DNA of 64,000 nt, taken from positions 243,418-307,417 of the forward strand of contig JAQGDQ010000086.1 in the NCBI GenBank assembly GCA_030141605.1, in the 5' to 3' direction. Made by a program: the position numbers and the translations under genes. The notes under the pieces are model-generated. The model was not told the origin of the DNA and ran no database searches. It saw only the letters and a program-made list of their open reading frames with translations. Shown one piece after another: positions 1-40,507 of the stretch. Source of the DNA: Tubiluchus corallicola (taxonomy: Eukaryota; Animalia; Priapulida). The stretch's first letter is position 1. Every line of letters begins with the position of its first letter.

Positions 1-133
1 CACACTTTCTTTCCTTTACATCCTGGTGACTTGCCTAGAACTTGTTAACCATGTAAATCATCATTTTGTGTCATAACTGTAATTCTGTATTCAGTACGTC
101 TCATAAATTATTTTTAGAGCTACGTCATCAGCC

Positions 134-3100
134 ATGGCAACCGGAGGTGGCGATGCTTCTGCTGTTCCTGTTCCCACTTTTAAAGTATTAAAAGGAACAA
201 AAGTAAATGCAAGATATGCTAGTCGACGAAACGTGAGTTGTTAATTTAACATTACGAGTGATTTTATTAAATTTAGAAAAGCTAGTAAATAGATTAGTAA
301 TGTTAATTCATTTTTTGTTACTAAACGTGAAGGATAGGAAATGTGAAAAAGCTGAAATACTGTCTGGATTTGAACTAGGACCTTCTGCTTGTAGGTCTAA
401 GGCATTTGCTTGCAACTTGCAAGGCAGATACCTTTAGACCACTAGGCCACTATGTTCTCCAGTAACTAAGATTGTCCAAAGTTCAACCTTATATATAGTT
501 AGTCAACCAAATGCATTTCTAATGTTTAAATTAATCAAAATGAAAATTTATTATTAGCTAGAATGTATGAGCAATCTAACATTGGGAATGCTGAATTTGG
601 TTGGCCATTTATAAGAGATGGGCTTTGGATAACCTTGATCAGTGAGAAATATGGTGGTTTAAGGCGTCTGCCTTATAATAATAAGGTCTATGGTTCAGAT
701 CCAGATGTACTCCAACACTTTCACGTTTGCTGTCTTTCAATCAAATGTTTGGCATCAAAATTAATTGTGGATGTGTATTGGTGTAATGGGTAATGGTTAA
801 CCTGTTAATTAATGACCATGTAATTCTGGGTGTTAGTTTGCGTAGAGGTGTTTTTTTAAAAATGGTCTGCCTTCCATCACAATTATATGTTCAATATCAC
901 TTGATAAAGTACCTCAGTCAAGCCTGTTTGAAAATTTAAAAAAAGGCATCCTGTGAGAGACAGTAAAGATAATACTGATGTACTGATGTTCCACAGGCCT
1001 GTATTTGGCAACCAAGCTTGACATGCTTCTGGAGTGCTGATTTAAACTATTTGAACAAAAAGGCCCATTGATCAGGGGTAAAAATATTAGGTGGCTGAAA
1101 TAGTATTAGTATTTTATTGACCTTGATCTGAACAAAATTACCACTTTTAAACCGACTTGCATGTTCCTGCTAAATATGTACATTACAAACACAGTGTGTG
1201 GTGCCAAATCATTTGGACATTTCAAATCCACATTTTGTGTGCTGCCTATGTTGCCACCGAATCTTACCATTCCAAAGCCATGTAACTGTGCCACATAATC
1301 TGCGCATTCCTTTTACCTGCAGTTTGTATGTTGTCATGTAACCTGCAAATTCCAAACCCGTAGTTTGTGTGCTGTCACATTGCCTCCACATTCCCAATCC
1401 ACTGTATATGTGCTAGCACATTCCGACTCTAAGCCCACAGATTATATGTTGCTACATAATTCACACATAGAACCCCGCACTATGTGTGCTGCCACATAAT
1501 TTGTATAATCTGAACCCACAGCATGCGTGCTGCCACATAATTTGCACATTCCGAACCCCAGTATGTGTGCTGCCATTTAATCTGCACATTCCGAACCCAC
1601 AGCTTTTATGCTGCCACATAAACTGCACATTTCTGACTTGCAATTCGTGTGTTATATCTGCACATTCTGAACTTTGTGTGTGCAATGTAACTGCACGTTC
1701 CAAATTCAAATTGCATTAATCGCTTTGATTTACCACCTCGTAAGCAGTACAATAGTTTGTGTACCCTTAACCATTTAGTGTGACACTTTGGGCACAAAAA
1801 ATGCACTAGACTAATCATGCTGTTAATAAATTAATTTTTAAGCTCACATCGCATGTTACGATACTACAAATCATTAATAATGTTGTTATTATTGAATGTT
1901 GTTAGGTGTATCCGATGGATTCTACACCACGTGGCTACTGCATGATTATTAATAATGTGGAGTTTGATACAAGAGAGGGTACAGACGAGATTGGCAACAA
2001 TATCGAATTCACACCAGAAACTAGATATGGTTCCGATGTGGACGAAGTAAAGTTGAAGAGTCTCTTTGACCAACTGGGATATGTTGTTCACCCAACAGAG
2101 TCAAATTTGACGTCTGAGGTATATAAGTTTTGTGTAGGACAAATACTGGCCAAGTAATGTTTTGTTTGTTCAAACTAGGCTATACCTGAGGTATATAAGT
2201 TTATGTGGAACACGTGCAAATGCTATCAAATAACTTTTTGTTTGTTCAAGCTAGGCCACGTGCAAAGTCTGCATATGAGTAAATGCAGAAAATTTATGGC
2301 AACATTAGCTATCAACAAATGTTACTTATTACTGTAATTCCTTCAGTTACTGTAATTTCTGGTTTGTGATGCAGCAAGAACAGATGTTGTGTCTTGGCTG
2401 GCAGCATAGTAAGCACTGGTATGAAGCAGTGCATAAATTGTAGGGAAACTGAGCATAGTTCCTTGGCAATTGGCTGAATGGCAAGAGATATTATTGCTCT
2501 GCCACCATATCTCTTATTTCTAAAAATATTGTAAGTTCTCAAAAATTGACCACAAGATGTAGCTTTCAGTGATCCATGTCAAAGACTAAGAAATGAATGA
2601 CAGCTTCAAGTGCAAAGCATTTACACATAATGTTTTTTTCAATGCACAAAAAACATTATGTTACAAACCTGAGTTTGGAGCTCAGTTAACAAAAGTTTTG
2701 TTTTGCAAAGCATATTCGTTTACCGTATTTATTATAGTCAGTTCAAGAAATTGGACAGCGCTGGAGCTCTTTGTAAGCAAATACAATTGTATAATCCTAT
2801 TTTTAGAATTATGCTCATTTTTGCTTCCAGCAAATGATGTCTGTCCTTGAAAAGTTTGCAAAAGATACAAGGCATGTTGATGTTGATTCATGTGTTGTGA
2901 TAATACTGACCCATGGTAACAAAGGTGACCTGTTATTCACTAGAGATGGCCATTTGGACTTTGTTGAGCATATTTTGCCTTTATTCAGTGGTATGCCATT
3001 ACTTATTTTAAAAATTGTAATTAAGTATTTTAACCAGATGTAACACAGTCAAGACATGACTGTAACATGCCTAACTTTTGTGTTTGACAAGACAAGTTTA

Positions 3101-6100
3101 TGACCAGGCGCTCCCACTTGCAACACCGGTAACTGACAGGACCATTTAATCCTTGCCTAGGTATGGTTTAAGCCTTACTTTCTTTCAAAGTCTTTTAAGA
3201 TTTCACCAAAAGCTTAAATGCTTTCCCCGTGAAAGTGATTTTGACGTTTTTGCAACTCTAATGTCTTTATTGCAAATAATATAGTCATAGCTTCTTGCTT
3301 AAGCTATAGTGATATAACTGATAATTAACAAGTTATGCCACTTTGCATAAAGTCTTGGGTTTTGTATAAAAATAGCATTTGAATGGACCTTTTGTCTTGT
3401 CCTTTTCCTGGTTATGGTAAGTCAAAAAGCAAAAGTTTGATGTATGCTTTCACTATGTAGTTTTCTAACACACGCATATCTTTAAGAAAGTATTTTAATG
3501 GTAGAATAAATTCTATATAATGACAAAATTAATTCATGTTTCTAGGGCGCAGTGCTGTTCATTTGTCAGGAAAGCCAAAAATATTTATCATTCAAGCTTG
3601 TCGTGGAGGTAGGTAACCAGTGAAATTGTTTTCATTTTGGTATCTTTTATCACTAAAGCCTTTGCAGCAACTGTGTAATAACACAATTCCCCAATTCATA
3701 AAATGACAGCCTTTAACAAATTTTACAACTTTAATTTGGCATTATTAATAATTGTGAGTTTCACATTCAGAGTTTCAGTCAAGTAATTTTGACATAGGTA
3801 TAGGTGCGGACCCAATGATTGCAGTGTAGTGCTTGATGACTGAGTTTGAGAATATTAATGATATCTAATTAATGAATATTAAATGAATATTAATGCTAGT
3901 TAGCGAACAGATGAGTGAACTGCTTCAGTTCTTACTCTGGGCAATTTTATGCTGAACATGGCCTCTCAAGCGAAGAACGTATTCATATTTGAATGTAACT
4001 TAGATACTTCTGCCAGTTCAGTGCATGATAGATGATGAGTTATGCCAGTTTGCTACAACCACGTAATTTTAGTATTAAGCGCCTGTCGCTGAATTGTGGT
4101 TTCTGGCTTGCAGGATTCCGAATCGTATAAAAAGGGACATACCTGAGAGTTGAGCTTCATCCTTTTGGCTACGAAAAATAACTTATGAGCCTTAAGAGAG
4201 ATATAATTTACTAAAATAAGTTTCTGCATATAGTCTTAAAATCTTTTGTTAAAATTCATTTTGTCTATTGTTAACAGTGAAAATTAGCTGCCCTTTTTGG
4301 CAAATTAGTTGTATCACCATTTCTGTGAACAATTACCAGATTCAGGTCCTGCACTGTACACGCACAAGCCATTTATTTCTCTCTCTGGCTCTTGTAGTAT
4401 TATACATTCATGGGCGTATTATCTGCCGCTGTACATTACTATGTGCTGTACGTACATGGGCACATCTTTGCTGCTGCGCATACTTATTATGTACTGTACA
4501 TACATGGGCACGTCTTTGCTGCTGGGCATACTTATTATGTACTGTACGTACATGGGCACATCTTTGCTGCTGCGCATACTTATTATGTACTGTACGTACA
4601 TGGGCACATCTTTGCTGCTGTACATACTTACTAACCAGAAAGAACTCAGAAGTCGATTCTTTTTTTTCTACACAGATAAGAGCCAGCAGCCAAATGAAAC
4701 ATCTGCGTCATCAGAAAAAGGTTTACCTAAAGATGGTGCTGGACACGGAGACGACAGACTAACGCAAGATGCAGCTTTTAGCTTTGTTACAAAACAAAGG
4801 TTACCACAGAAGAAGAAGCGGCCAAATGTTGGAGATATAATTGTGTGTAGAGCATCTGTGCCAGGTAGATTATTACTTTTTCTTGAAAACTTGAGCAGTT
4901 TGTTTAGGTAAGACTTGTCAAATTCGCAATATTTAACCCTGAGTGAATCTTGCATTTGGAAACGTTGAATTCAATGATGCACTGTTAGAATTGAAATAGA
5001 AATTGTGTAGCCTGCTAATGTAGCATATTTGAATTAATAAGCTGAAGGTATATGACTCAGTATTAGTGTGAGATATTTCAAATTTCCGTGTTGTTCATTC
5101 AAGAGATTTTGAAAATTTAAAATCTGTGTTCAATCATAGTTAGTTTACTAAACTTATCTGTTTGCAGTTAGATGCTTGCTTCTCATTGTTATTTAATACT
5201 GTTTAATGATCTGCAAGCTAATATCCAGGATTCAGTAACAACCAAAAGAACTACAACTTGTATCAAGACAACTAGAAGTCTCTTTTAGCCAGTTCAGTTT
5301 CTTTGTATACTGTATTTCCAAAATAATGGAAAAAATTGATTTTCATGTTACCAAATATTCATTATATTATATTTCATCATATCTTGTCGTATAGGGTAAC
5401 GAAAAAGAGGCGAATAAAAGAAAAGAATTACAAGAATTAATTTCCAAACTAAATTTTAGCACGTGGTATTTGGAAATGTTGTGCTCTTTCTTTTTTTTTC
5501 TTCGTGTTTTGATTGTGGGTCTTTTTTATTCATTTTTGCTAATATTCTCTGTTGTTAAGAATTAATCCGTGTTATCATGTAGGCTATGCTTCAATGAGAT
5601 CTCCAAAGAAGGGTACATGGTTCATAAGAAAACTAGTGAATGAATTTGCTCAAAATGCTAGCTGTCTGCATATTCATGAATTAATGACTAGGGTAAGTTT
5701 GTGTTGTGTTTTTGATCTGTTTTAACTAACATGAACGTGTGATCCTGATTACTTTGAAGAATGTAAGCTTAAAGGAAAACAGGATGATATTTCACTTCCT
5801 TCCCAGTTCGTAATATGGTAGAAACACATTTTAACACCTATAAGAATGCCAAAGTTTGTCTGATAATTAAATAATAGATTAGAAACTGAGTTAACAGTCG
5901 ATGAGTCAATTAATGATGACATCACGACTGAACGTAATTTTTAACAACACAGACATTCCTTGATCATGTTCCACGTGTTTGCAAAAAAGAAAGTTGAAGT
6001 ACTATGCTACTGTGTACAACATTCAGTGTGATGTACAATAGCTTCAAGTTTACGTTGTGCTCCCGCTTGAGCTCTTGAACATGTGCACTATGTCATCACC

Positions 6101-9100
6101 GAATACCTCTGAACTGAGAGTTACTGTATCTGTTTTTGTGCAAACACGTTTGCGAGACGCAGGTCCTAGTGCCCATCGGAGTAACGAAAGGCAAAATGCA
6201 TGGAACTAGCCGCGTGAACGCAAAATTACCATTATGTGGTAATAATTCTTTCACATAAGTCATTCTTGAAAAAAACTAGTGTGTTCCCTTTCAATATTAT
6301 ACAGGGTAGATTATTTTGATCTACAGTTTAAGATTGGATCCGGATTTGCTTTAAACCAACAACTGAAACGTGGTAAAAGTAAAACCTTGCATTTGAGATG
6401 AAATGGTCTATAGCTGTATACAATCTATCTGTTTCATTTTATAGGTAATAGGTCCCTCTAGATAAAACTGTATGTTAGTTTATCACGTATGAAAAATTCT
6501 GATTTTGCAACATGCATCGATCTTCCTGCAGTTACTTTGGTACGATTTGTAAGGAGAGTGACATCCTCCTGAAGTTGACCGGCTCACTCAGTACACATTT
6601 ACTAAATTAAACAAATTATTTTAATGTATAACTATTGTGCAACGTGCAGGAGTGGAGCATAATATTTGCCTCCCTTTGTTATCAGTGCGCTAGTAATGTG
6701 CACTGGCCAGTGCCACACAGTAGATACTAACAGAACTGTAGTGTTGTTAAAATTCAGTGGCAATGAAGAAATTGTATGATTTGTGTTCACAAACAAAAAC
6801 AACCACTGGTGCATTTTGAATAACTACTCTGTTATGTTAATAACAAGCATTCATTTATTACACCCTGAAAGCCTGAAAAAAGAAGTTTTATTACACTCTG
6901 AGAGCCTAAACAAACAAGTTATGTGGCAAAATTTAGTGTTTTCCCCACAAGGCAATTTGACTGAGTTGTTATATACCAGACTTCTTAATTACTTAACTGC
7001 AAGCTTTATCAGTGAATCAGTTACCGCAGCCAGCTCAGCTAGTACAGCGCTGAGCACTATTAATACAGCGTAGGGATTTGGGGAACTAAAATGATCTATG
7101 TTATCCTTTTTGTGTTTATTTGTATCTTCGTTAGTGGCCTGAAACAGCTTTTCAAGGTTAATTGTTACTAGTATAATAACCTTTTTGCATAATTAGCCTC
7201 CTCTTAAAGAAATGATAGTTTCTTGTTTGTAAGTCACCTCTAAGTCAAAAATGGTTTGGTCTGCCATCTCCCTACTGTCTGTTAGCCTGACAGACTTTCA
7301 AGACAGTGGTTAGTAGTCTGCTAGTATGTACCTACTGACTATTGTCGAAGTGCAAAGCAGAAGATGACATTTAAATTTTAAATTCTCTAATATTAGATAT
7401 CGCATTACAAATAATGTCTGCATTTTCATTATTGGAACCAGGTAGCCATATTAGGTCGAGTACCTAGGTATCGATGGAAACAGTACAGAACTGCACAAAC
7501 TTTTCCTCTTGTAGTCTATCTGAAACCTCTATAAAGATTTCTGAGCTGTACTTCATTATAAAATTTAAGTAATGTGTGTGCGTGCGGTGTGTGTGTGCGT
7601 GCGTGCGTGCATGCGTCTACCTCAAACCTCTGTAAAGATTTCTGAGCTGCACTTCATTATAAAATATGAGTAATATGTGTTTGTGTGTGTGTGTGTGTGT
7701 GGTGTGTGTGCATGCTTGTTAATAGTGACTTGTTGTTGTGTTGTACAAATGATAAACTCTGTACAAGTAATGCTTTGTAAAACCTTTTTTAGGAATCATG
7801 TATTTAGCACATTTCTATGTCATCCAAAAAGTGGTTTTGCGTCGACAGTAGTCAAAATAACCAGTTCCATGTTTTTGGCGAGTGAAATGGAACACAGAAA
7901 AAAGACAGCGATTAAGGCACATTAGCATATCTTTCTTAATCCTTAACATAGATATACTGCTGCTTTTGTTAGAGCAGCCTAGGCCTCAGTTTTAAATATT
8001 TATGGAATTGTACTGTTTTAGGTGCACCGTCAAGTGTTTGAATTGAAAGGCCGTCAAGAGAGGATGCGTGCAGATGGTGTTGGTTTTGAAAAGTTTCTTG
8101 TTGCTCAAGTTCCTGAATTGGAGTCTTCATTGATGACTCGACTGTTCTTCAATCCCCCACTTGTAAGTGCCTAATTTGCTGCCGTAAGCATATATATATA
8201 TCTTCCCAGGAATTTTTCATTACAATTATTATTTGATGAACATTAAGCAAACTCTTTGGCATGTACTTACTCGTAGTGAGTAAAGATGTTAATACTGAAT
8301 AATTCTGTTGTGATTTTATTACAAGCTTCATTCATAGTTATATCTTCACTGCCTTGCCACTTGCCAGCCTGCCAGTCCAAATTCAGTAACCTATTTTAAT
8401 CACAGGATAAAATTTTGAATCAGATACAATTTTAAATTTACCAAAAAAGTTTTGGCTAGTGAGTACTGCATATTTTTAACTTTCACTTATTCCAGTGTAA
8501 AACAGTTTTAACCCAGACTTTGTCTCCAGGACTGTGAATAGCAAGTTTGATTTCATTTTTACAGTCCACCACAAAAAATGTAGTGTACTTTCGTTTTTGA
8601 GTTGGTTTTTCTACTAAGTCACAAAAGTGTCCATGCTTTAGCATTTTTATTATGCAAACAATGATATTGACAACAATGATGATGATGTGATGATCCATTT
8701 TCTTTTTGTAGCAAATATCTTTTTATAAACAGCAGAAATTTTTCAAATATTGTTTAGTTTAGTTTAGTTTAGTTTAGCTTAGCTTAGCTTAGCTTAGCTT
8801 AGCTTAGCATAGCTTAGCTTAGCTTAGCTTAGCTTAGCTTAGCTTAGCTTAGCTTGGTTTAGTTTAGTTTAGTTTAGTTTATTCTATTTTCCATAACAAA
8901 TTATGTGATTTTTGACATCCAATGTAAGTTGTTAAAATGTTATTAGAAAATTTTTTTCCATTTCAGGAAACTGGTCCAGTTGGATTGGGTACAGCACTTG
9001 CTTACTGGCACTGGATTGGTTATCCTGCAGTTATCAAAAATGATTTTGTAAGTGAAATATCAAAGTGGAAGGAAGAGAACAGTTTAGAGCATGTTATCTT

Positions 9101-12100
9101 GAAACAGATTATTGTCTATTCGCAAAGTTGTCTAGGAACACTGCCGGGAAATAAGCATGTCTCTGACGAATTTGAAAAGTTTAAAAAAGTTGCTCATGCA
9201 TTTAAAATCACGAAAGACATGGCCGGGATGAAAGGTCGGAAATACGGAGTTACTGTTTGGCCTGTCAAGTCAGACAAGAAGAAATTCAATGTTGCAGTGG
9301 ACTACCCAACTGCTATACAAGCTATTCCGGCCAACACTAATAATATACGACAGCAGCTAGGAGAAGTAGCTGCATTTCACAAGGCCTTGCAATGCATTTT
9401 GGTACAAGAAAGTGTTGATTCACCTGACAGTGTTCCATTTGTATTGCTACCATACGACGACGAATGGGAATCACTTCGGGCCGTCCTGAGAGAAGCCTGC
9501 AGACAGTTTAAAAAGCCTAACTTTGCCTTCAGTTCCTGTTTAAGGAGTCCAGGTACTGACTGGGATTTTCCTGCCTGGGTGAATGAGTCAGACACTAGTT
9601 ATTTTAATCTCACTGCTGAGATGCCAGTCGGATTTCTAATAGCTGAAAGGTTTGTATGGTTTTCTAGCTTTAGGTCCCCTGCTAGCTAGTGAAATTTCTG
9701 AAAAAAACTGTCAAATAATAATTGCAAATCTGCTTCTTACAATAGTTTAATTTCTTAACGATGTACAATTTGTTAACAGGTTTCTTTGCACTTATATTTT
9801 TTTGGTATAGGTATGCTGGACTCTACTTCCACCACTATTCAATAAATCTTCAGCAGCGCTTGAGTCGGTTTAAACGACCAGGTGCACAGCAAAACATTGA
9901 TTCGGATAGTGATGATGACGACGATGACGGAGATGATGAACTGGTGGAAAAAGACAGTGAGGCATGTAAAATATTTACATATTGTTCTGCCGTCAGGTTC
10001 TCGTAGTCGGGTAGTTGTGATAGCCCCTGGATGGTTTAAACTAGAGCTATTGGTTGCAGGGATGAGAATTTTCCGCAGATACGCGGAATTCCGAGTTCTT
10101 GGAAGATCAATAGTGCCATTTTGGTAAATTGCGTAAATTCGTTGAGCAAATCTTTCGGGGTTGAACCTCGTTTTCGTCGAAATCGTAACTGAAACATTCA
10201 GTAGCATTTTTCGAGTATTTATCCAGCTTACCTTTTATCTCCTATATGTTAAAAATCACTGAAACAGTTTGGCTAAAATAGTTAAAATAAAGCGTAAATA
10301 TCGTTTATTTGATAATCTGTACGATTTGTAGTATTTCTTTTACAGCAATGCGGCATATCTTCATTGCTGACAAATGTGAAGCTTTGAGACCTCCAGACAC
10401 AAACAACCGAAATACCAAAGCATAATTTGAATAAAACCAAGTTTAGTTTTATAATTTATGAAATATAGGCAACAAAATATATACAAAATAAAATTTGTTA
10501 ATTTTTTGACGCTTCACGATCATATGTATCATGTATCCTTGATAGTTGGGTATTTTAAATTATGCATGAAACAAGGTACAGTAATTGATGTTTTAAGTCC
10601 ACTTAGAGGCTCTCTGAGGTCACAAAATTGCAATTTGTTGCTGGCTCCAAGGGGGCTTCACCCCCTTTAACCCTATGGGGGCTTTGCCCCTCAACCCCAC
10701 TGGGGCCCCCAAACCTCCGGCCTGTTTCAGAGTTTTTTGCAATTTGTCATTCTCATTCCTGCGGTTAGCGATAGGCCTCGGTTCGAATACCATATCCTGA
10801 AACGAGTTTAGTGAACCAAACGACTGAGAGACATTTACCAGCTTTCAAAGAGCAGCATAAGTCCTTTCCAAAATCTTGACCAAAGTAGTAATTTTATATA
10901 ATTAAAATTTTAATGTTTGAAGTAATCGAAATGAACAAATAGTTGGCTAAACATAAAGCATAAGAAAGAGAATCTACCCTTGAGGGTTCACCACTCCGTT
11001 ATATTAGTGCTGAAACAGTTTAAAGATTGGTCTTGGGAGAGTGGAAGCAGGCTTGTCCTGTTTGGTACTCAAACCAGCCAGCAACCACTGAACTCAAGGA
11101 AACAGAATATGCACTTATATTTATAGACTTTGCACAGGTGAAGCAGAGTACTAATTTAAATTTAAGCCAATCAGAAAGTATGATGTGTGAATTTTATGCA
11201 GGTAAAATTATTACCTTATTATCTACAAGGGTGTTTTATTTTAAAGTGACTTTGAAATAACATACATGCCATATATCTGCATCCGTGAGTGAGTGAAAGT
11301 TTGAACTCAAAACAGGGTGAAGTCAGCCCTGCAACAATATGTTTGTGTCACACACAGAATGGGTTGTTTGTGAGCTCATCTTTTTCTTGCGGTGCGAAAC
11401 AATATAAGCTAATAAATGTAAAATTATTTGTGTCTGAACTGTCTCGCTCAATTTAAAATCGTTAAACGGTAAGCACCGCATAATTAATTTGTCAAAATAA
11501 AATTGTAAACCAAGTAAGGTTTGACACAACATCTCATGAAATGCTTGTGATGTGCTTTGTCATCTTGTGTTTAAGCTTTGCTGGGTAATCCTTTCTGGCA
11601 AAAAGAGAGATAGTTAATCATATTCAATAATCTCACTTTTAATTTAAAAAGACAAATGTTAAGAAAATTGTCTTTATAGAAAATTTACCAATTTATGTGT
11701 TTTGGCTTTAATTTCATTTATTATTTTTTTGCAACAGCGTGTTAAATTTACAATCAACAAACTGCTTGTTCTGCTTCCATCTTCCTGCTATGTTCTTGAT
11801 TCACTGGAAAGCGTAGTTGGTATAGAAGTTATAGGTAACACAGACGACTTACAGGGAGACTCTGCCAAGATCTTTCTTTCAGACAAGCAGCGATACGTTG
11901 GGCATAGTACAGTTTACAAGCTGGATGATGACTACTTTATCGCTGAATTTGCTACGCCATTACGTTGCCTCAAGTTCATGAGAGACCGTGGTGTGCTAGG
12001 TGAAGATAGCAATTTGCTCAGCACATTTTATGAACAGTTCCGTATTAGGCTGGAAAGTTTGCTAGATGAGAACACCATTTGGGAGAAAAATTTTCATGTA

Positions 12101-12190
12101 GTTAGTTATGATGACACACATACGACTCTTGTGGCCGAGTTGCGTAGTATTTTTGCAGCCCAACGCTCTTGCATGGGTGATGAGGAGTGA
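134..12190 (+). CDS. Caspase-STING-STING fusion protein (about 753 aa, 10 coding exons)
   Basis: Exons 134-232, 1906-2118, 2831-2990, 3546-3608, 4676-4864, 5583-5692, 8022-8162, 8967-9649, 9811-9961, 11738-12190 total 2262 nt. All phases are compatible and all introns are GT-AG except the last, which needs GAG|gcatgt or the weaker CTG|gtggaa. Caspase motifs: YPMDSTPRGYCMIINN, RYGSDVD, IILTHG, GKPKIFIIQACRG, SMRSPKKGTWFI, QVPELESSLMTRLFFNP. STING motifs: LAYWHWIGY, DMAGMKGRKY, VDYPTAI, then KLLVLLPSSC, KQRYVGHSTVY, IAEFATPLRCL. An acceptor at 116-117 is open in frame, so coding exons upstream of the window cannot be excluded. Confidence 0.85.
355..455 (-). mobile_element. Degenerate tRNA-derived SINE-like fragment
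   Basis: Reverse complement reads gtggcctagtggtctaaagg (A-box-like) ... ggtcctagttcaaatccagac (B-box-like). No intact cloverleaf. Confidence 0.45.
1150..1720. repeat. Degenerate minisatellite, unit about 39-40 bp, in caspase intron 1
   Basis: Repeated core ctgcacattccgaacccacagtatgtgtgctgccacataa with divergence. Accounts for the spurious ORFs at 1106-1818. Confidence 0.8.
4405..4632. repeat. 48-bp tandem repeat, about 4.5 copies, intronic
   Basis: catgggcac recurs at 4455, 4503, 4551 and 4599, with a degenerate copy at 4409. Confidence 0.95.
7521..7712. repeat. About 100-bp local duplication with (GT)n/(GCGT)n microsatellite
   Basis: aaacctct(a/g)taaagatttctgagctg(t/c)acttcattataaaat occurs at about 7523 and 7624, each followed by TG repeats. 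Confidence 0.85.
8753..8880. repeat. Compound pentanucleotide microsatellite (TTTAG)n(CTTAG)n(TTTAG)n
   Basis: Seen directly, in the intron that joins the caspase and STING exons. Confidence 0.95.
8967..9510 (+). other. STING-like ligand-binding domain 1
   Basis: Colinear by-eye alignment to human STING CBD: ALAYWHWIGY~GLAWSYYIGY; KQIIVYSQSC~RLYILLPLDC; DMAGMKGRKYGVTVW~D(R/H)AGIKDRVYSNSIY; AVDYPTAIQAI~VLEYATPLQTL; AFHKALQCIL~LFCRTLEDIL; LLPYDD..SLRAVLREACRQ~LIAYQE..SLSQEVLRHLRQ. Confidence 0.85.
9621..12190 (+). other. STING-like ligand-binding domain 2 (split over three exons, with an acidic insertion)
   Basis: IAERYAGLYFHHY..NLQQRL~VAHGLAWSYYIGY..ELQARI; KLLVLLPSSCYVLDSL~RLYILLPLDCGVPDNL; KQRYVGHSTVYKL~KDRVYSNSIYEL; IAEFATPLRCL~VLEYATPLQTL; QFRIRLESLL~LFCRTLEDIL; VVSYDD..TLVAELR~LIAYQE..SLSQEVLR. 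Confidence 0.88.
10057..10761. mobile_element. Non-autonomous TIR element (hAT-like ends), apparently inserted in a tRNA-derived SINE
   Basis: Left end cagggatgagaat; right end attctcattcctg (reverse complement caggaatgagaat). Joining the flanks gives tagcccctggatgg...gctattggttg/cggttagcgataggcctcggttcgaatacc with A- and B-box-like parts. No clean TSD. Confidence 0.55.
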
Positions 12191-14514: not shown

Positions 14515-15300
14515 TTAGTTACCATATCCGTTTCGCCTGGCACTAGCTGGAAGTTGGCTCCTGCTACCGGCGTGCACGGGAAGGTCATCAAGTTTGACAG
14601 CTTGGAACTGCAGGTTGGGCGTCCTCTGGTACCCGTAAGCAGCACCTTGTTCGGTTTTGCCTTCTCCAGATGCGGTCTGGCTGTACTGTTGAGTTGCATC
14701 CTGTGAGGCTTGACGAGAAGCGCTGAGTTCAATACCGGCTTCACCGGAACCACTGCCAGTACGTTCGGATGAGCTTTGCTCTTGTTGGCGAGCATAGCCT
14801 GACCTGTACCGAGAACCGATGACGATTTGTTCTGTCTGGGCAGCGTTTACGGCTTGTCTTGGTGCCTGAGCTGCTGCGTCGTTCCTCCATCTGTTGAAGT
14901 CAAAAGCCTCAACGTTGATGTACAAGTTACCAAAAGAGTCGATGCCGAAAGCACTGGTGTCGATGTTGCCAAAGTTGTTGACATCAATGGCTCCACCACC
15001 AAATCCTTGCAGACCTGCAGCACGGAAAGCGCTGGTGGCACTAGAAGCGCCTCCTCCTGATACTGCGCCACCACCTCCGGAAACTCTGAACCCTCCACCA
15101 CCTCCAGATACTGCAGCACCACCTCCGGAAACTCTAAAGCCGCCACCACCTCCAGATACTGCAGCACCACCTCCGGACACCCTTACGCCACCTCCACCAT
15201 GTGCACCTCCTCCCATGTTGCCATAGCCTGCCATACCATATCCTTGGCAGAGCGCGCTGCTAATGCAGCCTAACAGCAGAAGGGCAACCACAGACTTCAT
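14515..15300 (-). CDS. Secreted glycine-rich repeat protein (261 aa), single coding exon
   Basis: Signal peptide MKSVVALLLLGCISSALC, about 3 repeats of VSGGGAAVSGGGGGFR, an Asp/Phe/Asn segment and a Gln/Ser/Ala-rich C-half. Splice acceptor ttttgcag lies just before the ATG (15302-15303) and a donor at about 16247 marks a non-coding first exon. AATAAA on the minus strand at about 14287-14292. Confidence 0.85.
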   Translation of the reverse strand: MKSVVALLLLGCISSALCQGYGMAGYGNMGGGAHGGGGVRVSGGGAAVSGGGGGFRVSGGGAAVSGGGGGFRVSGGGGAVSGGGASSATSAFRAAGLQGFGGGAIDVNNFGNIDTSAFGIDSFGNLYINVEAFDFNRWRNDAAAQAPRQAVNAAQTEQIVIGSRYRSGYARQQEQSSSERTGSGSGEAGIELSASRQASQDATQQYSQTASGEGKTEQGAAYGYQRTPNLQFQAVKLDDLPVHAGSRSQLPASARRNGYGN

Positions 15301-20446: not shown

Positions 20447-23194
20447 TCACGGATCATATTGGTCAGTTTCGTCGTCTCCGTCCTGGTCCATAAGCGAAGA
20501 TTCGTAGTAACAATAATAAATTTTAATGTCTCCTTTGTCTAGCTCCAATGAGGGAACACTGCCCCAATACGTACTGCTAGTGAATGAATCTTCACAATCC
20601 CATTTGAACCACTCCACGCTATCTCTCATTCCCAAAACCTGGAAGGATACAAAACTATAATGAAGTCACTGAATTTTTTCCATGCACTAGCTATCATTTA
20701 CTCAACCGAAGAAAGAGTTTTTTCATTTATTGCAGTTTGACTTGCTGAATATGGATGGTTACTGGTTTTGTCATTTGTTTATTATTATATAAGTTACTAA
20801 TGTTTTTATTTTTTTGGCATAATTGATGTTAAGGTTCATCTTATAGAAAGGCTTTTTCAATATTCTGGCTTTCGTCGCGGTTTAAGAACACTTTGGCTCC
20901 AGATATTTAGGTCCGGGATATTTGAGCTCCAGCATTTGAATCCTGGATACCAGGGCACTAGACAATTTGGGCCCCAGATATTTGAACCCTGGATATTTGG
21001 ACCCCAATCAATTGTGCACAGACATTTGAGCCCCAGGCATTTGGACCAAAGGCTTTTGATGTCTTTTCATTGGACATTTAGAAAAATAGATGGATAAACA
21101 GACAGACAGACAGGCAGACAGACAGAGACACAGACAGGCAGACAGAAATGAATCTCGGGCGTGGCATGGTGGGGATGAAGCAGACGGGTTTTCACTTACC
21201 CTTTGACAAGCGCTTCCATGTCTGAACAGGTAAAACGGCTTGTTGGTTGGCAATCGTATAGGTTTACTAGCGTCTCCGTCATTTCTGCAGCAGTAGTATA
21301 TCTTCGTGTTATGATCATATTCACCGTGTGGCACGCTGGGAGAATACTAACAAATAAAAAATTAAAAAGCTTTTAATCAGATTTATTACAGGCACAGGTC
21401 TATCCTTAGGTCTATCCTGTTTCTGTAAGTTCTATATCGCACAAATACTGCTTTTTTACTTGCAAAATATGTTCGGTCTTACTCCGACTGTTAAAGTTTA
21501 TTTGGAACATGGTATGCAGAAATGTAGTCAGTCAGTCAGTCAGTCAGTCAGTCAGTCAGTCAGTCAGTCAGTCAGTCAGTCAGTCAGTCAGTCACTCCGT
21601 CAATCAGCTTATAAGTCTACAGTTTAAATTACTATGAACAGAGTTTTCATGTAAACACCTCATTCATACCGCGTTCTGGTTAAACAGATCTTCGTCGTCC
21701 CAGAAAACCCATCCGTCTTGAAAACCAACTGGACAAGCTTGATGGTAAGCGCGGAAAACGCAATATTCTCCTTCAGGCCACAACTCTGGTCTCTCGTTGG
21801 TATCCTGTTCATCCTCATTTTTGCTCACGTCTTCCTTCATACAAAAATGTTGCTCCATGTTGTTTTTTCTTAAAGACACATAATCGCCGTAGCATTTAAT
21901 TAGTTCCATGGCACGCCACAATACTTTTAAAGAATAGTGAATGATGTTGTGTGTTTACGTTACAATGAAGAGACGATGTAATCACAACATGCCTATAAAA
22001 ATATGCTACTTTTCTGAACTACGGTATTTTTAGGTACTGACACTGTTAAAATGGCAAATGTTACTGTGTTTTTCGAAGCTGAGCAGGTGTCAGGATTGAA
22101 AAGAAAAATGAAATATCATATAATCGTGTTTGTGTTTTTTTCGTAAAGTGCAATACTGTATTCTAAAAAAACTCATTATTTCGAAGTACTGTGGACTTCA
22201 AATATTCGTAATTCGTGTGATGCTGACGTTAGCATTTATTTTAACCTTACATTCATTAGATACGGCAATATTTTTGGATCAGTGGGCTCTTGAAGACAAA
22301 CTGCAAAGATTCATAGCTTGTGCTTGAATCATCTATAGTCGTCAACGTACTTGTATCAGTGCATATAGTTTCTAATTTAATACAATCATTTAACATCAAA
22401 TAATTTCGAACAATTTTAAGTCAAACAATTTAACGTAAAGGTGCACTACACCTTTTCTATTTTTTATTTTTTCCTTTTTTCCCCTTCGTTTCTTTTTCTT
22501 CTGCATAGTTGATGAACGTTCTAGTTATTAATCCGCTTTAAAATTCGGACTGAAAATGTAGTGCTTAATTTTTATGGACAAAATTTTTATGGATAAAGTT
22601 ATGTAACTGATTTTACTTATACTAATACGTACATTGATATTGAATGAACTATAGCCTGGGCTGAAATACAGAAGATATATAATTGTGCTTATAGCCTACT
22701 CGTATTTTCCAAAAAAATGTAGGGGATTGCTCCATTCATTATTAGGAAACCAATCCTCTGTGTCGTGATACCGCCATCCACTGTTCCATCCTGCAAATCC
22801 ATCGCTGGTGGAACACCCACTTAGAGGTTTGGCCAATCCATAAGCTCCTTTAGGCCACTGCGCTGTCTCCAGGTCCAGTTGTGAAACCCTGTCTGCTCCA
22901 GCTGTGGAAAAAGTAATGCCAAAATTGAGGTACTGGATAAAATTTTGATTTTTCTGATTTTACAAAACAGATTAATTCCCGCTTTCATCCAATAATTTCA
23001 TCAAGTTCAACTTTGCAAGTTTCGTTGCTTGCACAGCAATAGCCATCGATGTCCAAATACATATCAATACTTCATTTAATATATAATTGGAAAAAACATA
23101 TGTATAAAGGACTGTACATATCGTATTTACCTGGTGCCAAGACGAACAACTGGAAAACGCTGACGAACAATGATAGCGCCCAAAACAAAGCCAT
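20447..23194 (-). CDS. Secreted apextrin-like (ApeC domain) protein A, 267 aa
   Basis: Exons 23194-23131 (signal peptide MALFWALSLFVSVFQLFVLAP), 22901-22700, 21868-21670, 21346-21200, 20638-20447; phases 1,2,0,0; 804 nt. ApeC motifs WPKGAYGL..GC, WRYHDTED, FCMK, WPEGEYC, CPVGFQDGWVFWDDED, YYCCRNDG, LPTNKPFYL, WDCED, IYYCYY. Confidence 0.9.
20893..21060. repeat. Array of about 15-bp degenerate subrepeats (dispersed repeat family)
   Basis: Units like ccagatatttgggcc / ctggatatttggacc. A related array occurs in the opposite orientation at about 56540-56700. Confidence 0.6.
21526..21594. repeat. (CAGT)n microsatellite
   Basis: Seen directly. Confidence 0.97.
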
Positions 23195-27510: not shown

Positions 27511-27586
27511 CTACGAAGTTCCCACAACCTCTTCCTCTTCTTCTTCCTCTTCCTCTTCCTCTTCCTCTTCTTCTTCCTCTTCCTCT

Positions 27587-27621
<35 letters not shown>

Positions 27622-28500
27622 TTCCTCTTCCTCTTCTTCTTGCACGTCGCAAAGAGATCCAATGTAGCCATCGACGCATCGGCAAATAACTTCGCCTACA
27701 CCATCGTCATCATCAAAACAGCAATCTCCTTTCAAGCATTGACACTCGCAGCCGTCATCCGTCAGTTCCACTTGACCAGAATCTGCCATGCAGGTACAAG
27801 ATCCATCATCCCTCATCAAGGCTGGGAACTGACAAATACACGTTCCATCAGTAGCCGTGTCCCAAGGTGCATCTGGGCATCGACATCCATAACCGTCCGT
27901 TTCTGCTATCATCGGTGGAGGACAAACACAATACTCTCCGTCAAACACCATCCCACCTGGGCAAGGAGGAATCACTCCATACGCATGCGTAAACCCGCTG
28001 TACAACTCTCTAACGGTTGAACATGTTTCCGGTTCGTTTGATGCTCGCCTGGAAGAAGAACACTTAAGGATATATCTTAGAAAATAATAGTGCTTCCGTG
28101 TCCACGGAAACTCGATAGAGATGATAGTACTATACTGAGTACCAGATGGTTTCTTGCGTGATCTGACCATGCAGTCGTTGAAGTCAATAACAAAATAAAC
28201 GGTGCGTTTACCATTTCCGTAAACTGTGCACGTTTTGTAACCGCCTTTGTAGTCCAATGCAGTGTTGATAGTCCCAAAAAATGGCTTCCTGAATATTATT
28301 CTGGCAACCATAAAGTCGCACCCGTCATAACACCGAACTCTGATGCGTCTAATTGCGGGCCTGTCGTCGCCGAATATTCTTCTCACACTTCCTTTGTACT
28401 CAATATCCTCAGCAACGGGAGCGTAACACATCATAATAAAGCAGTGCAAGCACAATAAAATGCTGCAGAATGTGGCAATCCAACTATTGCGCAGACTCAT
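27511..28500 (-). CDS. Secreted ZP-N-like + Cys-rich/EGF-like protein with a 37-Glu tail (329 aa), uninterrupted CDS
   Basis: ATG at 28500 follows an acceptor-like tattttacgtag; hydrophobic N-terminus. VRC..FMVARIIFRKPFFGTI..CTVYGNG..IDFNDC..YSTIISIEF..YILKC fits the ZP-N/cuticlin pattern. CxC repeats end in EGF-like CRCVDGYIGSLCD. Poly-Glu at 27529-27639. Confidence 0.8.
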
Positions 28501-31591: not shown

Positions 31592-34500
31592 TTAGGCGCC
31601 AGGTTTTTTAGTATTTCTTGTGGTCGGCTCATAGTAACAATAATATATCTTGATATCACCCTTTTCATTTAGTTCCATCTGAGGCACACTTCCCCAGTAC
31701 GTGCTTGTATTTATTGAATCTTCACAGTCCCATTTGAACCATTCGACTGAATCACGCATGCCCAATACCTATAGAGAAAACACCAAATAATTATGTCAAC
31801 AATACAAAAACAGAATCTCTGTTGCGGTCCTGCACTTTGGCCCTTTGGAGGTTTTAAACGTTCACTGATAGACATTAGGTACAATTTGCAGGGACGAATA
31901 GCAAGTTATATCTGAGCCTTCTTCTGGTGGTACGATTAGTGACCTTGGAATACACAAGTGGCAATAGCACCCAAGTGTCTATCTGTGAACGTTTTGAAGT
32001 TATGAGCCTCCAATGTGCAGGAAAATTTCTCGACCTTTTAGTGTTCCGAAGCAGCGGGCCAAAATAAAAATGTCCAAAACGCTGTTAAAATAGCCTAAAG
32101 AATCATTCCTGAAAGTTTGGCAGCTGTATTCAGTCAGTACCCTTTTTGGCTAAGAGACTGGACTAGTGGAGGGTTACATTTGCCTTCATTTTGTCTGTAT
32201 TTTAACATCATTAATGGCTGTTCATCATGATACACCAAGATTGATATAATTTTTATTAATTATGTCGTCCTTTAACGTTGTCCTTGTCACTGCAGTGGTT
32301 TGACCAATAAACATCAAAGAAGATTAAGAATGTGATAAAAATGTTTGTTTGAATTCTTGCCTTTTGGGACCATTTATAGCAAAGTTCCTTCACGTATTCG
32401 TTCCGTGTATTCGTAGCGCATAGAACTTTGTCATATTTTATTGCATGACCACTACCTTATGTTTACCCAATCTTCATTTTTACTGTTCCCGCCATCGTCG
32501 TTCTCATCGTCACCATCTTGGTCGTTTTTTATGAAGCTGTTCATGTGTTAGTTTGTAGAAATTTCATCTACTGCACGTTTTGCCATTGTATTTCAAATTG
32601 TTTGTTCAGTAAATCAATTACGTCTACTAGTACTCGTTGCCACTACCAAAATTAAAACGCTTTATTTCTTTTCCACTTCTAATTAAAAAAATTAATAAAA
32701 ATTTTATGATTCAAGATGTGTACTACCTAACGTGAAAAACCTGCAAATATTCATGTTCTAGAAAAAAGTACGTAATTGGTATTGCCAATTTGCTAACTCT
32801 TACTCTTTGGCAGTTAGACTTATATTTGAACATGTAGAAAGGCTTGTCGGCTGGTAGTCTCATAAATTTGTTGGCGTCTCCATCGTTCCGGCAGCAGTAC
32901 CACATTTGTGTGTTTATGTCATACTCTCCATGTGGTACACTTGGCATATACTGCAAAATAAAAACGTAACTTATAATCATAATGGCCTGATGTGACAACA
33001 AATTGGTGATCGTTCTAGCCAATAAGATTACAGGTTCCATTCAACAACTAAACATATTCTTCTTTTTTAATGTAGATGTACTTGCTTACCTACCAGTGTA
33101 TTCAGTGATGCTGAATTAAGTTACATTACATTGTGTAAGGCCACTGAGTGTAATGCTTGTAGGTTAATTAATCTTAATTAAAGGATGCTAATTTATTGAC
33201 AACAATTTATACTGCAAATCACCGCATTACAGAGTAATGAAAGAGCAAGCATAATGCAAAATCTGTTTGCAAGAACTTGACTGACTGGCAGAATTGTTCG
33301 CGTGTGGGCTAATTAACGCTGTTTTGCCAACGGCGTTAAATACTACGTAGCGCGCACACCAGAGCAGACGAGACAGAAAATTAAATACGTCTAATGAAAA
33401 TATTTGTGACAAAGTTGATAAAGCTGCGTTTATCGAGTTCCCTGACGAGCAAAAATCTGTTCCAGACAGATTTGGCATTGTGTGCGCCCTGTAAAATGTG
33501 CTGAATTTTCTGTCTCAGACAAGCTCCTAATACTCCCGTGTGCAGGTTAGATACAAGGCCGCATCAGACAAAACTAGACCAGATCCCTAAAAGCAATTAT
33601 TTTGTTACACGTGAATAGCTCGCGTCATACAAAAATTGCCATATGCAGGCAAATTTTGTCTGACACGGTTTGCCTGCGATAGTTTGTGGCAAAAAAGCAA
33701 GTTTTTCACAATGTGCTAGTAGTAGTATTACAATTAAGTGGTTTAGTACAATGAAATGATGCAAAAAAGAAATAAAAAATCCACAACGCAACTTGAGTTC
33801 AAGTTTTTAAATTTGTACCATTGCTGCATAGTTAAACATGAACACAGCTCTGTACTCACAGCGTTAGCGTTGAACGCGTCTTCATCGTCCCAGAAAATCC
33901 AGCCCTGTTCAAAGCCTACAGGACATGCTTGGTGATACGCCCTGTACAAGCAATAGTCTCCTGCTGGCCACAAATCTGGACTATCACTGCCTCCGCTGAC
34001 ATCTTCCTTCATGCAAAAATGGTGCTCCATATTCTGGTCCCTGCAGATGGTTTTTTAATGAAAACTGAGAGTGTTAAGTGGTGCTAACCAGACATCTGGA
34101 GTGTGTGTGCGGAATAGATAAAATCGGTTTAAATTGTTTTCAATGCACCTGTTTATCAGACCTGCAGGTGGATAAGGCATAACGCATTCCAATGCATTCA
34201 TAACCAAATTAAAAGCATTTATGATGTCAAGATTTGAATATTCAGCTTACTAACATGATAACTTACACACTAATTCACCCCAGGTTATAGTAAACTACTT
34301 AATTTTGCTGATAGCCATTTTGTAAATATGTAAAATATATAAAGTTTAAGTTTAAAGTTCTATTTTACTTTTGCACCTGTAGTTCGGATTTTGCACTGTC
34401 GCATTCACCTCCAACAGTGTATGTTTTTTAACATTCACTGGCTGAGTATTTTGTTATGATTCCCAACATTATGATGGCCAATAAAGATGTTGCTTAGTTA

Positions 34501-37903: not shown

Positions 37904-40507
37904 ATGTTACGCTTCTTAGCTTTTGGGTTCCTTTTGTGGAATTTATTCTCATTTTCTGGCAAGTTCATCTTTCGCAATGATCTAGTTGTGGTCTATATTA
38001 ATTACATCACTTGCATAGTGTTTTGCCAAATCAATAAGTGTTGATATTCCTTAAATACTAGTTAAGAAATTTTAGAAAAAAGTTCTTTTCCGCGAAAAAA
38101 GCAGATATAATAGATACTAACACAAACGAAAGTTAGTCAGCTTGAATTAAGCCTGTGTTATGATTATCATTCTAACTTAATTGACTAGGCCTATGTAACG
38201 TCTATTCACCTTGAATCATTTTTACACGTATTTTCTTTTTCAAATTCATTGGCGTAGCGCCTCAAGCAAGTGAAAGTCCTAAACGGCACTTTTCCAGTAA
38301 CTATTTCAGTGAAGTGTAGTTGAGCATGTGTCACCACCTGATACGGATCGTTTTTTCGTGAAATTTTTCTTTCAGCGGCTGAATATAAATGCGACATTAT
38401 CCCGCCTAGACCAGCGGCTTGGCCTAAAGGAGCATATGGAATACCCAAGTCCAATACTGGCTGTCCGGCAACGCATGGATTTAGTTGGAAAGAGGGATAC
38501 CGCTACCAAGACACCGAGGATTGGTTTCCAGACAGCGACTGGAGTAGCTCCCTTTATGGTCAAAACTCGTAAGTCTCTGCTTTTACGCTCTTTATAATAT
38601 TTCCTTGATAGTAAGTAGATAATTTTACTACGAGTACTGTAGGGGGAGTTAATGGTGACTAACTTTATGAGTCCCGCATTTTGAAATAAGACCGGTGGGC
38701 TACATAATTATAAAGATATATATTTGCACCTAGCAATACACCTCAGCAAACGGTACATTTTTATCAATTAGTACACTACGTGGGAATTGTGCGCATCACT
38801 GATCATTTATGGGTCGGTAGCATTAGCAGTTGATAGCTCAGCAGTTAGGCGACACACTTAAATGTCTCATGTGTTCGACCCTTTAACCGAGATCACAATA
38901 AGAAATCATTGTATGGGATCTCCAGGGTCACGTTGCTCGCGGATAAAAATTACACCAAGTCTCTCTTTTTCTCGTTACTCAACAAGGAGCACTGTTCTGA
39001 AGCTGGGATTGTGTATAGGCGATAGTTAACGATCAGTTATTTATGGGTAGGTCTTCGCCTTAAAGGAATATTTTAACTATTCATATTAATTCACAAGTAG
39101 AAAAATTACCTTCATTGCACATGTATGCCTATGTAGAAGATAGTAATCTACCTGACAACACAACAACAGACTAATAATGGAGAACCTGAGCCCTGCTCAA
39201 CTAAATCAATAATGTTTTTCAATAGCAAGCATTGACTATTGTGAAAAAGTCGGGACGTCCTGATTTAATCCTTGTAATTCACCAAAGAAAATTTGGACCC
39301 GGAATGAAGCAGAAAAGTTGTTTAAATATAAAGCCTTCTGTATTAAGATGCGATAACTTCAAGGTGACCAAAGTTTGTATCCTACTTTCACTAAAAGTCC
39401 AAAAAAATTCGTCTATAATCATTTATAGTCATCTACAATTATGTTAAAATATATTGCGCGCACACAACTTTTTTTCGCACTAATTCCGCAACTTTCGGTA
39501 AAGTTGCGGATCATGAATATTGAAAGTTCGCCAAACGACATCGATTCTAATTATCCCGTAACATAATTCTTATAATGCAAGATTCGATGTTAGATAAGCA
39601 GCTCCAGTAAGGGCTGTCTCCATATTTAAATTTTGTATTTCTTCTTTGTTTTCCTTAAATACTTCAATTCTTAATTTTCTTCTTTTTTCAAGAATTCTCG
39701 CTCTTTTATGTTTCTATTTCCCCTCTCTTCTTCCTTTTCTTCCGTTCACTTCACTCTTCATCGGTTTCGCTTTTGTCTTTAGTATGTAAAACACTTTCAG
39801 TTAACGTCGTACCAAATTTTCTAGTAAAATTCTACCGTGAAATAACAGGAACAACAATAAGATAAAACCTAACAAGACAACACAATGGAGCTGCATGCTT
39901 AATTTATGGACAGAAATTTCTTTTATTTTTATTTTTATTTTACTGGACTTCAACAGTTTTTTTCTGGTAGACACTTTACGCTTAATTTACATTTGTTAGT
40001 TAAATGTTAGTGTATTACTTCAGTTCTGTTATTCTTTTCCAGAGTTTCACATATAGAACAGTATTTCTGCATGAAAACAGACACAGACAGCAGTGTTGAT
40101 AATGACGACAGCCGGGACCCGTGGCCTGCGGGACAATATTGCATTTTCAGAGCTGCAAACCTAGATTGTCCGGCCGGGTTCAGTGACGGGTGGATATACT
40201 GGGACGACGAAGATTACAGAAATGAAAACTCGGTAAATGAAAAACGAGTTTAAGTTTAACCAAGTACCGACACTAAAACTATAAAACTTTTTTTCATTGT
40301 ATAAGGAGTAAAACAAATACAATTAAACAAATACAAATACAACTTTTTAAACAATTAAAAAGTAGACAGTGCAAAAGTTTAGAAACTACGACGCGATTAT
40401 CAGGAAAATTTGTATCAGCTTCCGTTTTAAACATCGGCGCATGAATACATTGCGGTTAAATGAGATAAAGGAGTGTAGGTGAAATCTTTTAAGAAAATCT
40501 GAGAGAG

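What the first reader, a model, noticed from the sequence alone, without database searches (positions are those of the whole stretch)
134..12190. Caspase fused in frame to two tandem STING domains: a candidate one-protein cyclic-dinucleotide-activated protease in an animal
Seen in sequence: the last caspase exon ends at a canonical phase-0 donor right after the p10 terminus (LFFNPPL|gtaagt, 8162). The next strong acceptor (tttttttccatttcag|, 8967) opens in phase 0 directly on the first helix of a STING ligand-binding domain, and a second STING domain follows to the stop at 12190. The catalytic dyad and Asp-specificity residues are intact. Established: canonical animal STING is TM4+CBD; TIR-STING fusions are known in bacterial CBASS and some lophotrochozoans (oyster, Capitella); STING CBDs oligomerise on ligand binding; initiator caspases activate by induced proximity; bacteria couple cyclic-nucleotide sensors to caspase-like proteases (SAVED-CHAT). 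Inference: this is a soluble receptor-effector in which cGLR-made or bacterial cyclic dinucleotides cluster the protein and activate the caspase, bypassing TBK1/IRF3/NF-kB. I know of no described animal caspase-STING-STING architecture, but cannot check the literature here.
Basis: partly seen in the sequence, partly recalled or inferred. Interest (0 to 1): 0.95.

Follow-up and report, generated by a model that had tools for sequence, protein, structure and literature searches.

The report
Caspase fused to two STING sensors
This animal gene is predicted to splice an intact caspase protease directly onto two STING-type nucleotide-sensing domains, a fusion that recurs in distant animals such as a priapulid worm, and it likely works as a one-protein immune switch in which a nucleotide signal would turn the protease on.

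Summary
The architecture is real. Ten exons (134-12190) give one open 753-aa frame: a caspase with catalytic His132/Cys176 and Asp-pocket residues, then two STING ligand-binding domains (both above Pfam's cut-off; the first folds like STING). No RNA of this species was available, so the 8162/8967 splice is inferred. However, an uninterrupted 655-aa relative on a 2.2-kb contig and three Priapulus caudatus RefSeq loci carry the same fusion with an identical linker length. The fused caspases form one clade (96/94), and each STING position forms its own (100/99), pointing to one old fusion. The two STING domains are only 19% alike and keep the ligand-contact residues in complementary halves, with Trp and Arg where human STING has Ser162. 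Best reading (about 0.5): a soluble single-chain STING pseudo-dimer binds a possibly non-standard nucleotide, oligomerises and activates the caspase. Binding, pairing and activation are untested. Ten paper searches found no description, but the key survey (Burroughs & Aravind 2020) was unreadable. The scan had not noted this before. New variant of STING-effector fusions; interest 0.85.

The parts
134..232 (+). Exon 1 coding part (ATG, 33 aa, no CARD/DED prodomain). An acceptor at 117/118 shows a further exon upstream, outside the window
1906..2118 (+). Exon 2: start of caspase large subunit, S1-pocket Arg73
   Evidence: Pfam Peptidase_C14 E 4e-6
2831..2990 (+). Exon 3: catalytic His132 (codon 2912-2914)
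   Evidence: Pfam Peptidase_C14
3546..3608 (+). Exon 4 (63 nt): QACRG with catalytic Cys176 (codon 3599-3601). The matching 21 aa are missing from Priapulus isoform X2
4676..4864 (+). Exon 5: intersubunit linker with candidate self-cleavage Asp210 (LTQD/A), aligned with an Asp in the Priapulus proteins
   Evidence: alignment; cleavage inferred
5583..5692 (+). Exon 6: small subunit, S1-pocket Arg247
8022..8162 (+). Exon 7: end of caspase small subunit (LFFNPPL), phase-0 donor GTAAGT
8163..8966 (+). Intron 7 (804 nt), the fusion intron. Read-through stops after 3 codons (VSA*); no AATAAA/ATTAAA found in it
8967..9649 (+). Exon 8: STING domain 1 (about 8967-9530), P-x-W linker, and start of helix 1 of STING domain 2 (from 9621)
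   Evidence: Pfam STING_LBD 32 bits; PDB 6wt6 E 1.7e-5; Foldseek STING prob 1.00
9811..9961 (+). Exon 9: rest of helix 1 of STING domain 2 and an acidic insertion; GC donor
11738..12190 (+). Exon 10: core of STING domain 2 (R655, E673, T676, P677) and the stop; no long C-terminal tail
   Evidence: Pfam STING_LBD 38.7 bits

Best explanation
The gene is predicted to make one soluble 753-aa protein in which an intact, prodomain-less caspase is joined to two unlike STING domains, and it likely acts as a nucleotide-gated protease: the two STING domains would fold onto each other as a single-chain asymmetric dimer, bind a (possibly non-standard) cyclic nucleotide, stack side by side, and so bring the caspases together. 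Shown here: the domains, the catalytic residues, the absence of a membrane segment, the fixed linker length, and the recurrence and single origin of the fusion in other animals. Inferred: the splice in this species, S1:S2 pairing, ligand binding, oligomerisation, self-cleavage at Asp210, and an immune or cell-death output.
For: Fusion: P0001, 655 aa on one 2,188-nt contig, runs through the same junction (FNPPV-ETGPLG) at 55-58% identity in the STING parts. Priapulus LOC106811066, LOC106806925 and LOC106806933 carry caspase plus two STING domains. The caspase-end to STING-helix spacing is 18 residues in 8 of 8 proteins. One origin: fused caspases plus one caspase-only Priapulus model form a clade at 96/94 among 47 rows; S1 and S2 form separate clades at 100/99 among 18 rows. 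Constraint: 24 of 38 listed exon differences in run X1 are synonymous, against 0.21 expected. Protease: His and Cys kept in 4 of the 5 full caspase domains; closest solved structures are caspase-2, CED-3 and caspase-9. Pocket: window S1 keeps the equivalents of Y167, R238, Y240 and T263. S2 keeps R238 (one-residue shift), E260, T263 and P264 in 8 of 8, and Y167 in 7 of 8. These are the residues named as CDN contacts in PMC4117786 and 10.1101/2023.02.22.529553. Precedent: TIR-STING filaments on ligand binding (PMC8204762) and SAVED-CHAT filaments that activate a caspase-like protease.
Against: Neither domain has a canonical pocket floor: the S162 equivalent is Trp in S1 and Arg in S2 in 8 of 8. 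S2 has Leu at G158, Leu/Phe at G166, Glu/Gln at W161 and no Y240. In Priapulus, S1 has Lys for R238 (6 of 6) and Leu for Y167 (5 of 6). Li et al. call the aromatic pair and lid Arg universally conserved. P0001 has lost the catalytic His and both S1-pocket Arg while keeping both STING domains, and 3 Priapulus models lack most or all of the caspase, so proteolysis is not needed in every member. In the 137-row FastTree the caspase clade has only 85 support. No RNA of this species shows the splice.
Confidence: 0.5

Rival explanations
1. The fusion is real, but the STING pair is a pseudo-receptor: the Trp and Arg fill the pocket. The tandem then acts as a ligand-independent scaffold, or as a decoy that holds the caspase off until a pathogen protein binds or cuts it.
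For: Bulky invariant residues at the pocket floor and dimer-crossing positions, and loss of Y167/R238 in most Priapulus S1 copies. Multi-copy families in Priapulus (6 loci) and paralog-like contigs of about 86% identity in X1 fit an arms race.
Against: R238, E260, T263 and P264 equivalents are invariant in S2, and Y240 in S1, across proteins only 26-58% alike. That is more than a scaffold would obviously need.
Confidence: 0.25
2. The protein is nucleotide-gated, but it pairs between chains (S1 with S1', S2 with S2'). The S1 homodimer binds ligand and sets the two caspases on their two-fold axis, while S2 is accessory.
For: Window S1 alone keeps the Y167/R238/Y240/T263 set and Gly166, and sits directly on the caspase by a fixed-length linker.
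Against: Two Trp at the S162 position would meet on the two-fold axis (inferred from STING geometry, recalled). The 47-59-residue S1-S2 linker with an invariant P-x-W motif suggests docking within the chain.
Confidence: 0.17
3. In this species the region holds a stand-alone caspase ending at LFFNPPLVSA* and a separate STING-STING gene starting at an ATG in intron 7, or makes these as its main isoforms.
For: Read-through gives a complete caspase three codons past the donor, and an in-frame ATG lies just upstream of exon 8. Priapulus has caspase-only (P0014) and STING-only models. No RNA of this species was seen.
Against: Strong phase-matched splice sites and no poly(A) hexamer in intron 7. P0001 is continuous across the same junction, and so are three Priapulus loci. 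The Priapulus STING-only models begin inside the caspase small subunit, as truncated models would.
Confidence: 0.06

Closest known systems
Metazoan TIR-STING (Crassostrea gigas; PDB 6wt6/6wt7) and bacterial Cap12 TIR-STING
   Same: Soluble effector domain placed N-terminal to STING helix 1 in place of the membrane segments. It is the top sequence and fold match for S1.
   Different: The effector is a caspase, not a TIR. There are two STING domains back to back, 19% alike, with no effector between them. The scallop protein P0106 repeats TIR-STING four times instead.
Canonical animal TM-STING (human, Nematostella, coral)
   Same: STING ligand-binding fold (TM about 0.65) and part of the CDN contact set.
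   Different: No transmembrane segment (highest 19-residue hydropathy 1.5), only 27 residues after the last YDD, altered pocket floor, and a built-in enzyme.
SAVED-CHAT of type III-B CRISPR/CBASS (10.1101/2023.06.23.546230)
   Same: A cyclic-nucleotide sensor fused to a caspase-like protease; there, ligand-induced filaments switch the protease on (abstract). This is the best functional analogue.
   Different: Bacterial, with a SAVED sensor and CHAT protease and cA3 as ligand. Here it is a true animal caspase with STING domains.
Bacterial STING-trypsin peptidase and STING-hydrolase fusions (cited in PMC10732462 from Burroughs & Aravind 2020)
   Same: STING domain fused to a protease.
   Different: Bacterial serine protease with a single STING; seen only as one sentence in the citing paper.
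Initiator caspases (caspase-2, caspase-9, CED-3)
   Same: Closest solved caspases; His/Cys dyad and Asp pocket intact.
   Different: No CARD/DED. The candidate clustering module is C-terminal and is a STING tandem.

Membership tests
Caspase (Peptidase C14A) | Profile match | tested here: met
   Exons 2 and 3 pass the Pfam cut-off; whole relatives score 102-163 bits
Caspase (Peptidase C14A) | His-Cys dyad with QACxG | tested here: met
   H132 and QACRG 174-178
Caspase (Peptidase C14A) | Arg/Gln/Arg S1 pocket for Asp | tested here: met
   R73, Q174, R247; residue roles recalled from caspase structures
Caspase (Peptidase C14A) | Proteolytic activity | not testable with these tools
   needs recombinant protein
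Death-fold initiator caspases | N-terminal CARD or DED prodomain | tested here: not met
   About 35 residues before the catalytic domain; P0001 and P0003 have equally short starts and no CARD/DED hit. An upstream exon outside the window is not excluded
STING ligand-binding domain (PF15009) | Profile match for both domains | tested here: met
   32 and 38.7 bits against cut-off 27; two stretches in P0001, P0003 and P0005
STING ligand-binding domain (PF15009) | STING fold | tested here: met
   S1 model pLDDT 65; all 40 listed Foldseek rows are STING. S2 was not folded on its own
STING ligand-binding domain (PF15009) | Full CDN contact set (Y167, R238, Y240, E260, T263, small residue at 162) in each protomer | tested here: inconclusive
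   Split between S1 and S2, with Trp/Arg at 162; mapping read by eye
STING ligand-binding domain (PF15009) | Dimer pocket and CDN binding | not testable with these tools
Canonical TM-STING | Four N-terminal transmembrane helices | tested here: not met
   No hydrophobic segment above 1.55 in the window model, P0001 or P0003
TIR-STING | TIR domain | tested here: not met
   No TIR hit in P0001, P0003 or P0005

The most novel reading that the evidence does not exclude
An old, overlooked animal immune family in which a nucleotide second messenger switches on a caspase within one polypeptide, through a single-chain asymmetric STING pseudo-dimer tuned to a non-standard ligand. It would be the animal counterpart of bacterial SAVED-CHAT, giving a direct second-messenger-to-caspase route with no membrane, adaptor or kinase.
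Probability: 0.45. Interest if true: 0.95.

Novelty: new variant of a known kind. Interest (0 to 1): 0.85.

Why it matters
Animal STING is known as a membrane adaptor, with rare TIR fusions of unclear role. A conserved caspase-STING-STING protein would show that animals also wire nucleotide sensing straight to an enzyme, as bacteria do. It would add a caspase activation route without death-fold domains. It also offers a soluble one-protein system in which ligand can be found by a simple fluorogenic assay, including new cGLR products. The fixed Trp/Arg asymmetry makes a sharp prediction about how two unlike STING halves could read an asymmetric ligand.

Tried and rejected
RNA evidence: no RNA holder listed. 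Run X1 behaves as DNA (contigs cross introns, repeats at high depth) and X2 covers only a repeat. The single X1 joint 8177->8965 (one contig, 26 letters on the short side, letters between not known) keeps the first 15 intron bases, so I do not count it as a splice; it may be a paralog with a shorter intron. No whole genome is held, so cGLR genes and paralog number in this species are unchecked. AlphaFold of full-length P0003 failed (pLDDT 33, 4 sequences) and was not used. Complex prediction of S1 with S2 was not available: no verdict. The wide VIA fold search was busy. ESM Atlas gave only generic caspase clusters for P0003 and no usable hit for the STING tandem. The metagenome scan found 0 relatives among 120 pattern matches; a second query had no usable pattern. 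The first caspase tree run failed on a motif filter and was redone. The organism could not be placed: two window ORFs were not in the protein collection. Four look-ups of earlier scan notes gave nothing on this architecture. Not held: Burroughs & Aravind 2020, the Cell version of Li 2023 and Morehouse 2020. The weak grouping of S1 and S2 with alternate scallop STING repeats (69/45) is not relied on.

Full report
Observation. Introns 1-8 are GT-AG. Intron 9 needs a GC donor at 9961, the only open solution among 20 donor pairs tested, and it aligns the model with relatives. At the fusion intron, CTT|GTAAGT (8162) and TTTCCATTTCAG|GAA (8967) are both phase 0. Eight nearby donor/acceptor pairs keep both frames open, and only this one has a full-consensus donor. 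Pfam finds Peptidase_C14 in exons 2 and 3, and STING_LBD above its cut-off in exons 8 and 10. An AlphaFold model of the first STING domain (pLDDT 65) matches only STING structures in the 40 listed Foldseek rows, led by oyster TIR-STING 6wt7 (E 6e-8). The caspase has H132, QACRG (C176), R73 and R247, and a linker Asp210 that aligns with an Asp in the Priapulus proteins. No segment looks transmembrane.

Is it one gene? No RNA run of this species was listed, and run X1 is DNA-like, so the splice is inferred. Independent support comes from relatives. A search with exon 8 for longer proteins returned 1 of 666 candidates: P0001, 655 aa on a 2,188-nt contig, with caspase and two STING domains in one frame through the same junction. 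A continuous frame of that size, where the window has nine introns, is best read as a transcript, but its source could not be viewed. Searches with the STING region returned Priapulus caudatus RefSeq models (3 of 4,993 and 5 of 6,629 candidates), and a full HMMER scan of 1.84 billion representatives added one more. Three Priapulus loci have caspase plus two STING domains (LOC106811066, LOC106806925, LOC106806933). Three more start inside the caspase small subunit (LOC106817462, LOC106810332, LOC106813086), and one related model is caspase-only. These are predicted models named 'uncharacterized protein'. Of 40 mostly long hits scanned (out of 150 listed, 1,656 found), 2 had a STING domain: the Priapulus fusion P0005 and a scallop (TIR-STING)x4 protein. 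The family therefore looks rare in current databases, within the limits of these searches.

One origin and constraint. The distance from the caspase's final FNPP to the first STING helix is 18 residues in 8 of 8 proteins. The window model is 40% identical to both P0001 and P0003 in the caspase, 55% and 26% in S1, and 58% and 37% in the S2 core. The fused caspases, with the caspase-only Priapulus model, form one clade at 96/94 in a 47-row IQ-TREE (the 45 best of 137 caspase domains plus the family). Support is weaker, 85, in a 137-row FastTree. S1 and S2 each form a clade at 100/99 (18 rows) and are 19% identical within the window protein. Priapulus isoform X2 lacks exactly the 21 residues that match the window's 63-nt exon 4, implying shared intron positions there; this exon boundary may be common among caspases (recalled), so it is modest support. 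Among exon differences listed for X1, 24 of 38 are synonymous against 0.21 expected. I left out intronic sites and one repeat-derived site, and the tables were cut (40 and 16 rows not shown). Some X1 contigs are about 86% identical, suggesting paralogs. The organism is unidentified; neighbouring ApeC genes fit an invertebrate (recalled). I cannot say whether it lies outside Priapulida.

The STING pockets. I mapped positions by eye to human STING from the alignments and tabulated them. The CDN-contact residues are those named in PMC4117786 (passages: Y167, R238, Y240, N242, E260, T263) and in the Li et al. preprint (passages: aromatic pair and lid Arg universal, position 162 sets specificity). 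Window S1 keeps Y167, R238, Y240 and T263, with Asp at 260, Val at 242 and Met at 232. S2 keeps Y167, R238 (one-residue shift), E260, T263 and P264, but lacks Y240 and has Leu at 158 and 166 and Glu at 161. Position 162 is Trp in every S1 and Arg in every S2. In Priapulus, S1 has Lys at 238 and mostly Leu at 167. This position-specific, complementary pattern is what an asymmetric S1:S2 pair would leave, but it also means a standard CDN may not fit. Pairing could not be modelled.

Mechanism. The caspase sits where the membrane segment or TIR domain sits in other STINGs, on a fixed short linker, and has no death-fold prodomain. STING domains oligomerise on ligand binding (PMC8204762, passages), and SAVED-CHAT shows that ligand-induced filaments can activate a caspase-like protease (abstract). 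Activation of initiator caspases by dimerisation is recalled knowledge. The likeliest reading (0.5) is single-chain pseudo-dimer, ligand, oligomer, caspase activation. Rivals are a ligand-blind scaffold or decoy (0.25), inter-chain S1:S1 pairing (0.17), and separate genes (0.06). Against a purely proteolytic role, P0001 has lost the catalytic His and both pocket Arg yet keeps both STING domains.

Literature. Ten full-text searches found no description of this architecture: 'caspase-STING' 0 papers; 'STING-caspase' 5, whose listings concern mammalian disease; Priapulus+STING+caspase 1 unrelated listing; 'tandem STING' 1 cancer review listing; and combined-term searches. I read passages only of PMC10732462 (0 occurrences of 'caspase' or 'Priapul'; it lists TIR, hydrolase and trypsin fusions), PMC9127187, PMC8204762, PMC13572491, PMC4117786, PMC8195603 and the Li preprint. 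I read no supplements; Table S5 of the Li preprint could bear on novelty. Burroughs & Aravind 2020 and Morehouse 2020 were not held, and Margolis 2017 was not tried. An earlier listing of the architecture there is possible.

Verdict. Observation confirmed, interpretation partly supported. This is a conserved, apparently undescribed caspase-STING-STING family: a new variant of STING-effector fusions, with an untested but easily testable mechanism. Interest 0.85.

Noticed in passing
window 21008-22959 (-), 32723-34054 (-), 40011-40253 (+): Exons of at least three ApeC (apextrin C-terminal) domain genes (Pfam PF16977): a small cluster of a domain linked to invertebrate pattern recognition (recalled), 9-28 kb from the fusion gene.
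   Followed up: partly
window 55780-56145 and 60311-60646 (+): Exons of a glutamine-fructose-6-phosphate aminotransferase (GFAT) gene; the second matches human GFAT1 at E 6e-15, the first was assigned by recalled motif.
   Followed up: partly
window 14515-15300 (-): A 261-aa Gly/Ala-rich ORF with a signal-peptide-like start and GGGGxRVS repeats; no Pfam hit and not in the protein collection. Possibly a structural secreted protein.
   Followed up: partly
window 27511-28500 (-): A 329-aa Cys-rich, signal-peptide-like ORF with EGF-like repeats ending in a long poly-Glu run; no significant Pfam hit.
   Followed up: partly
P0106 (Ylistrum balloti LOC132559766): Scallop protein with four STING domains among TIR domains. 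Repeats 1/3 keep the lid motif and 2/4 have lost it, a second case of alternating unlike STING domains in one chain.
   Followed up: partly
P0167 versus P0169 (Priapulus LOC106806933): Isoform X2 skips the 21-aa catalytic-Cys segment, which would give a protease-dead form with both STING domains, a possible built-in inhibitor.
   Followed up: partly
window 95-133: A splice acceptor 16 nt before the ATG with an open frame back to it: a further exon lies upstream of the window and could be coding.
   Followed up: partly
window 6038-6275 and 10055-10770: High-copy repeats inside introns 6 and 9 (depth in the thousands in run X1); also short tandem repeats at about 4400-4630 and 8743-8894.
   Followed up: no
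P0007, P0009, P0018 (decapod crustaceans): Proteins of about 800 aa made of three tandem caspase-like domains; not examined further.
   Followed up: no
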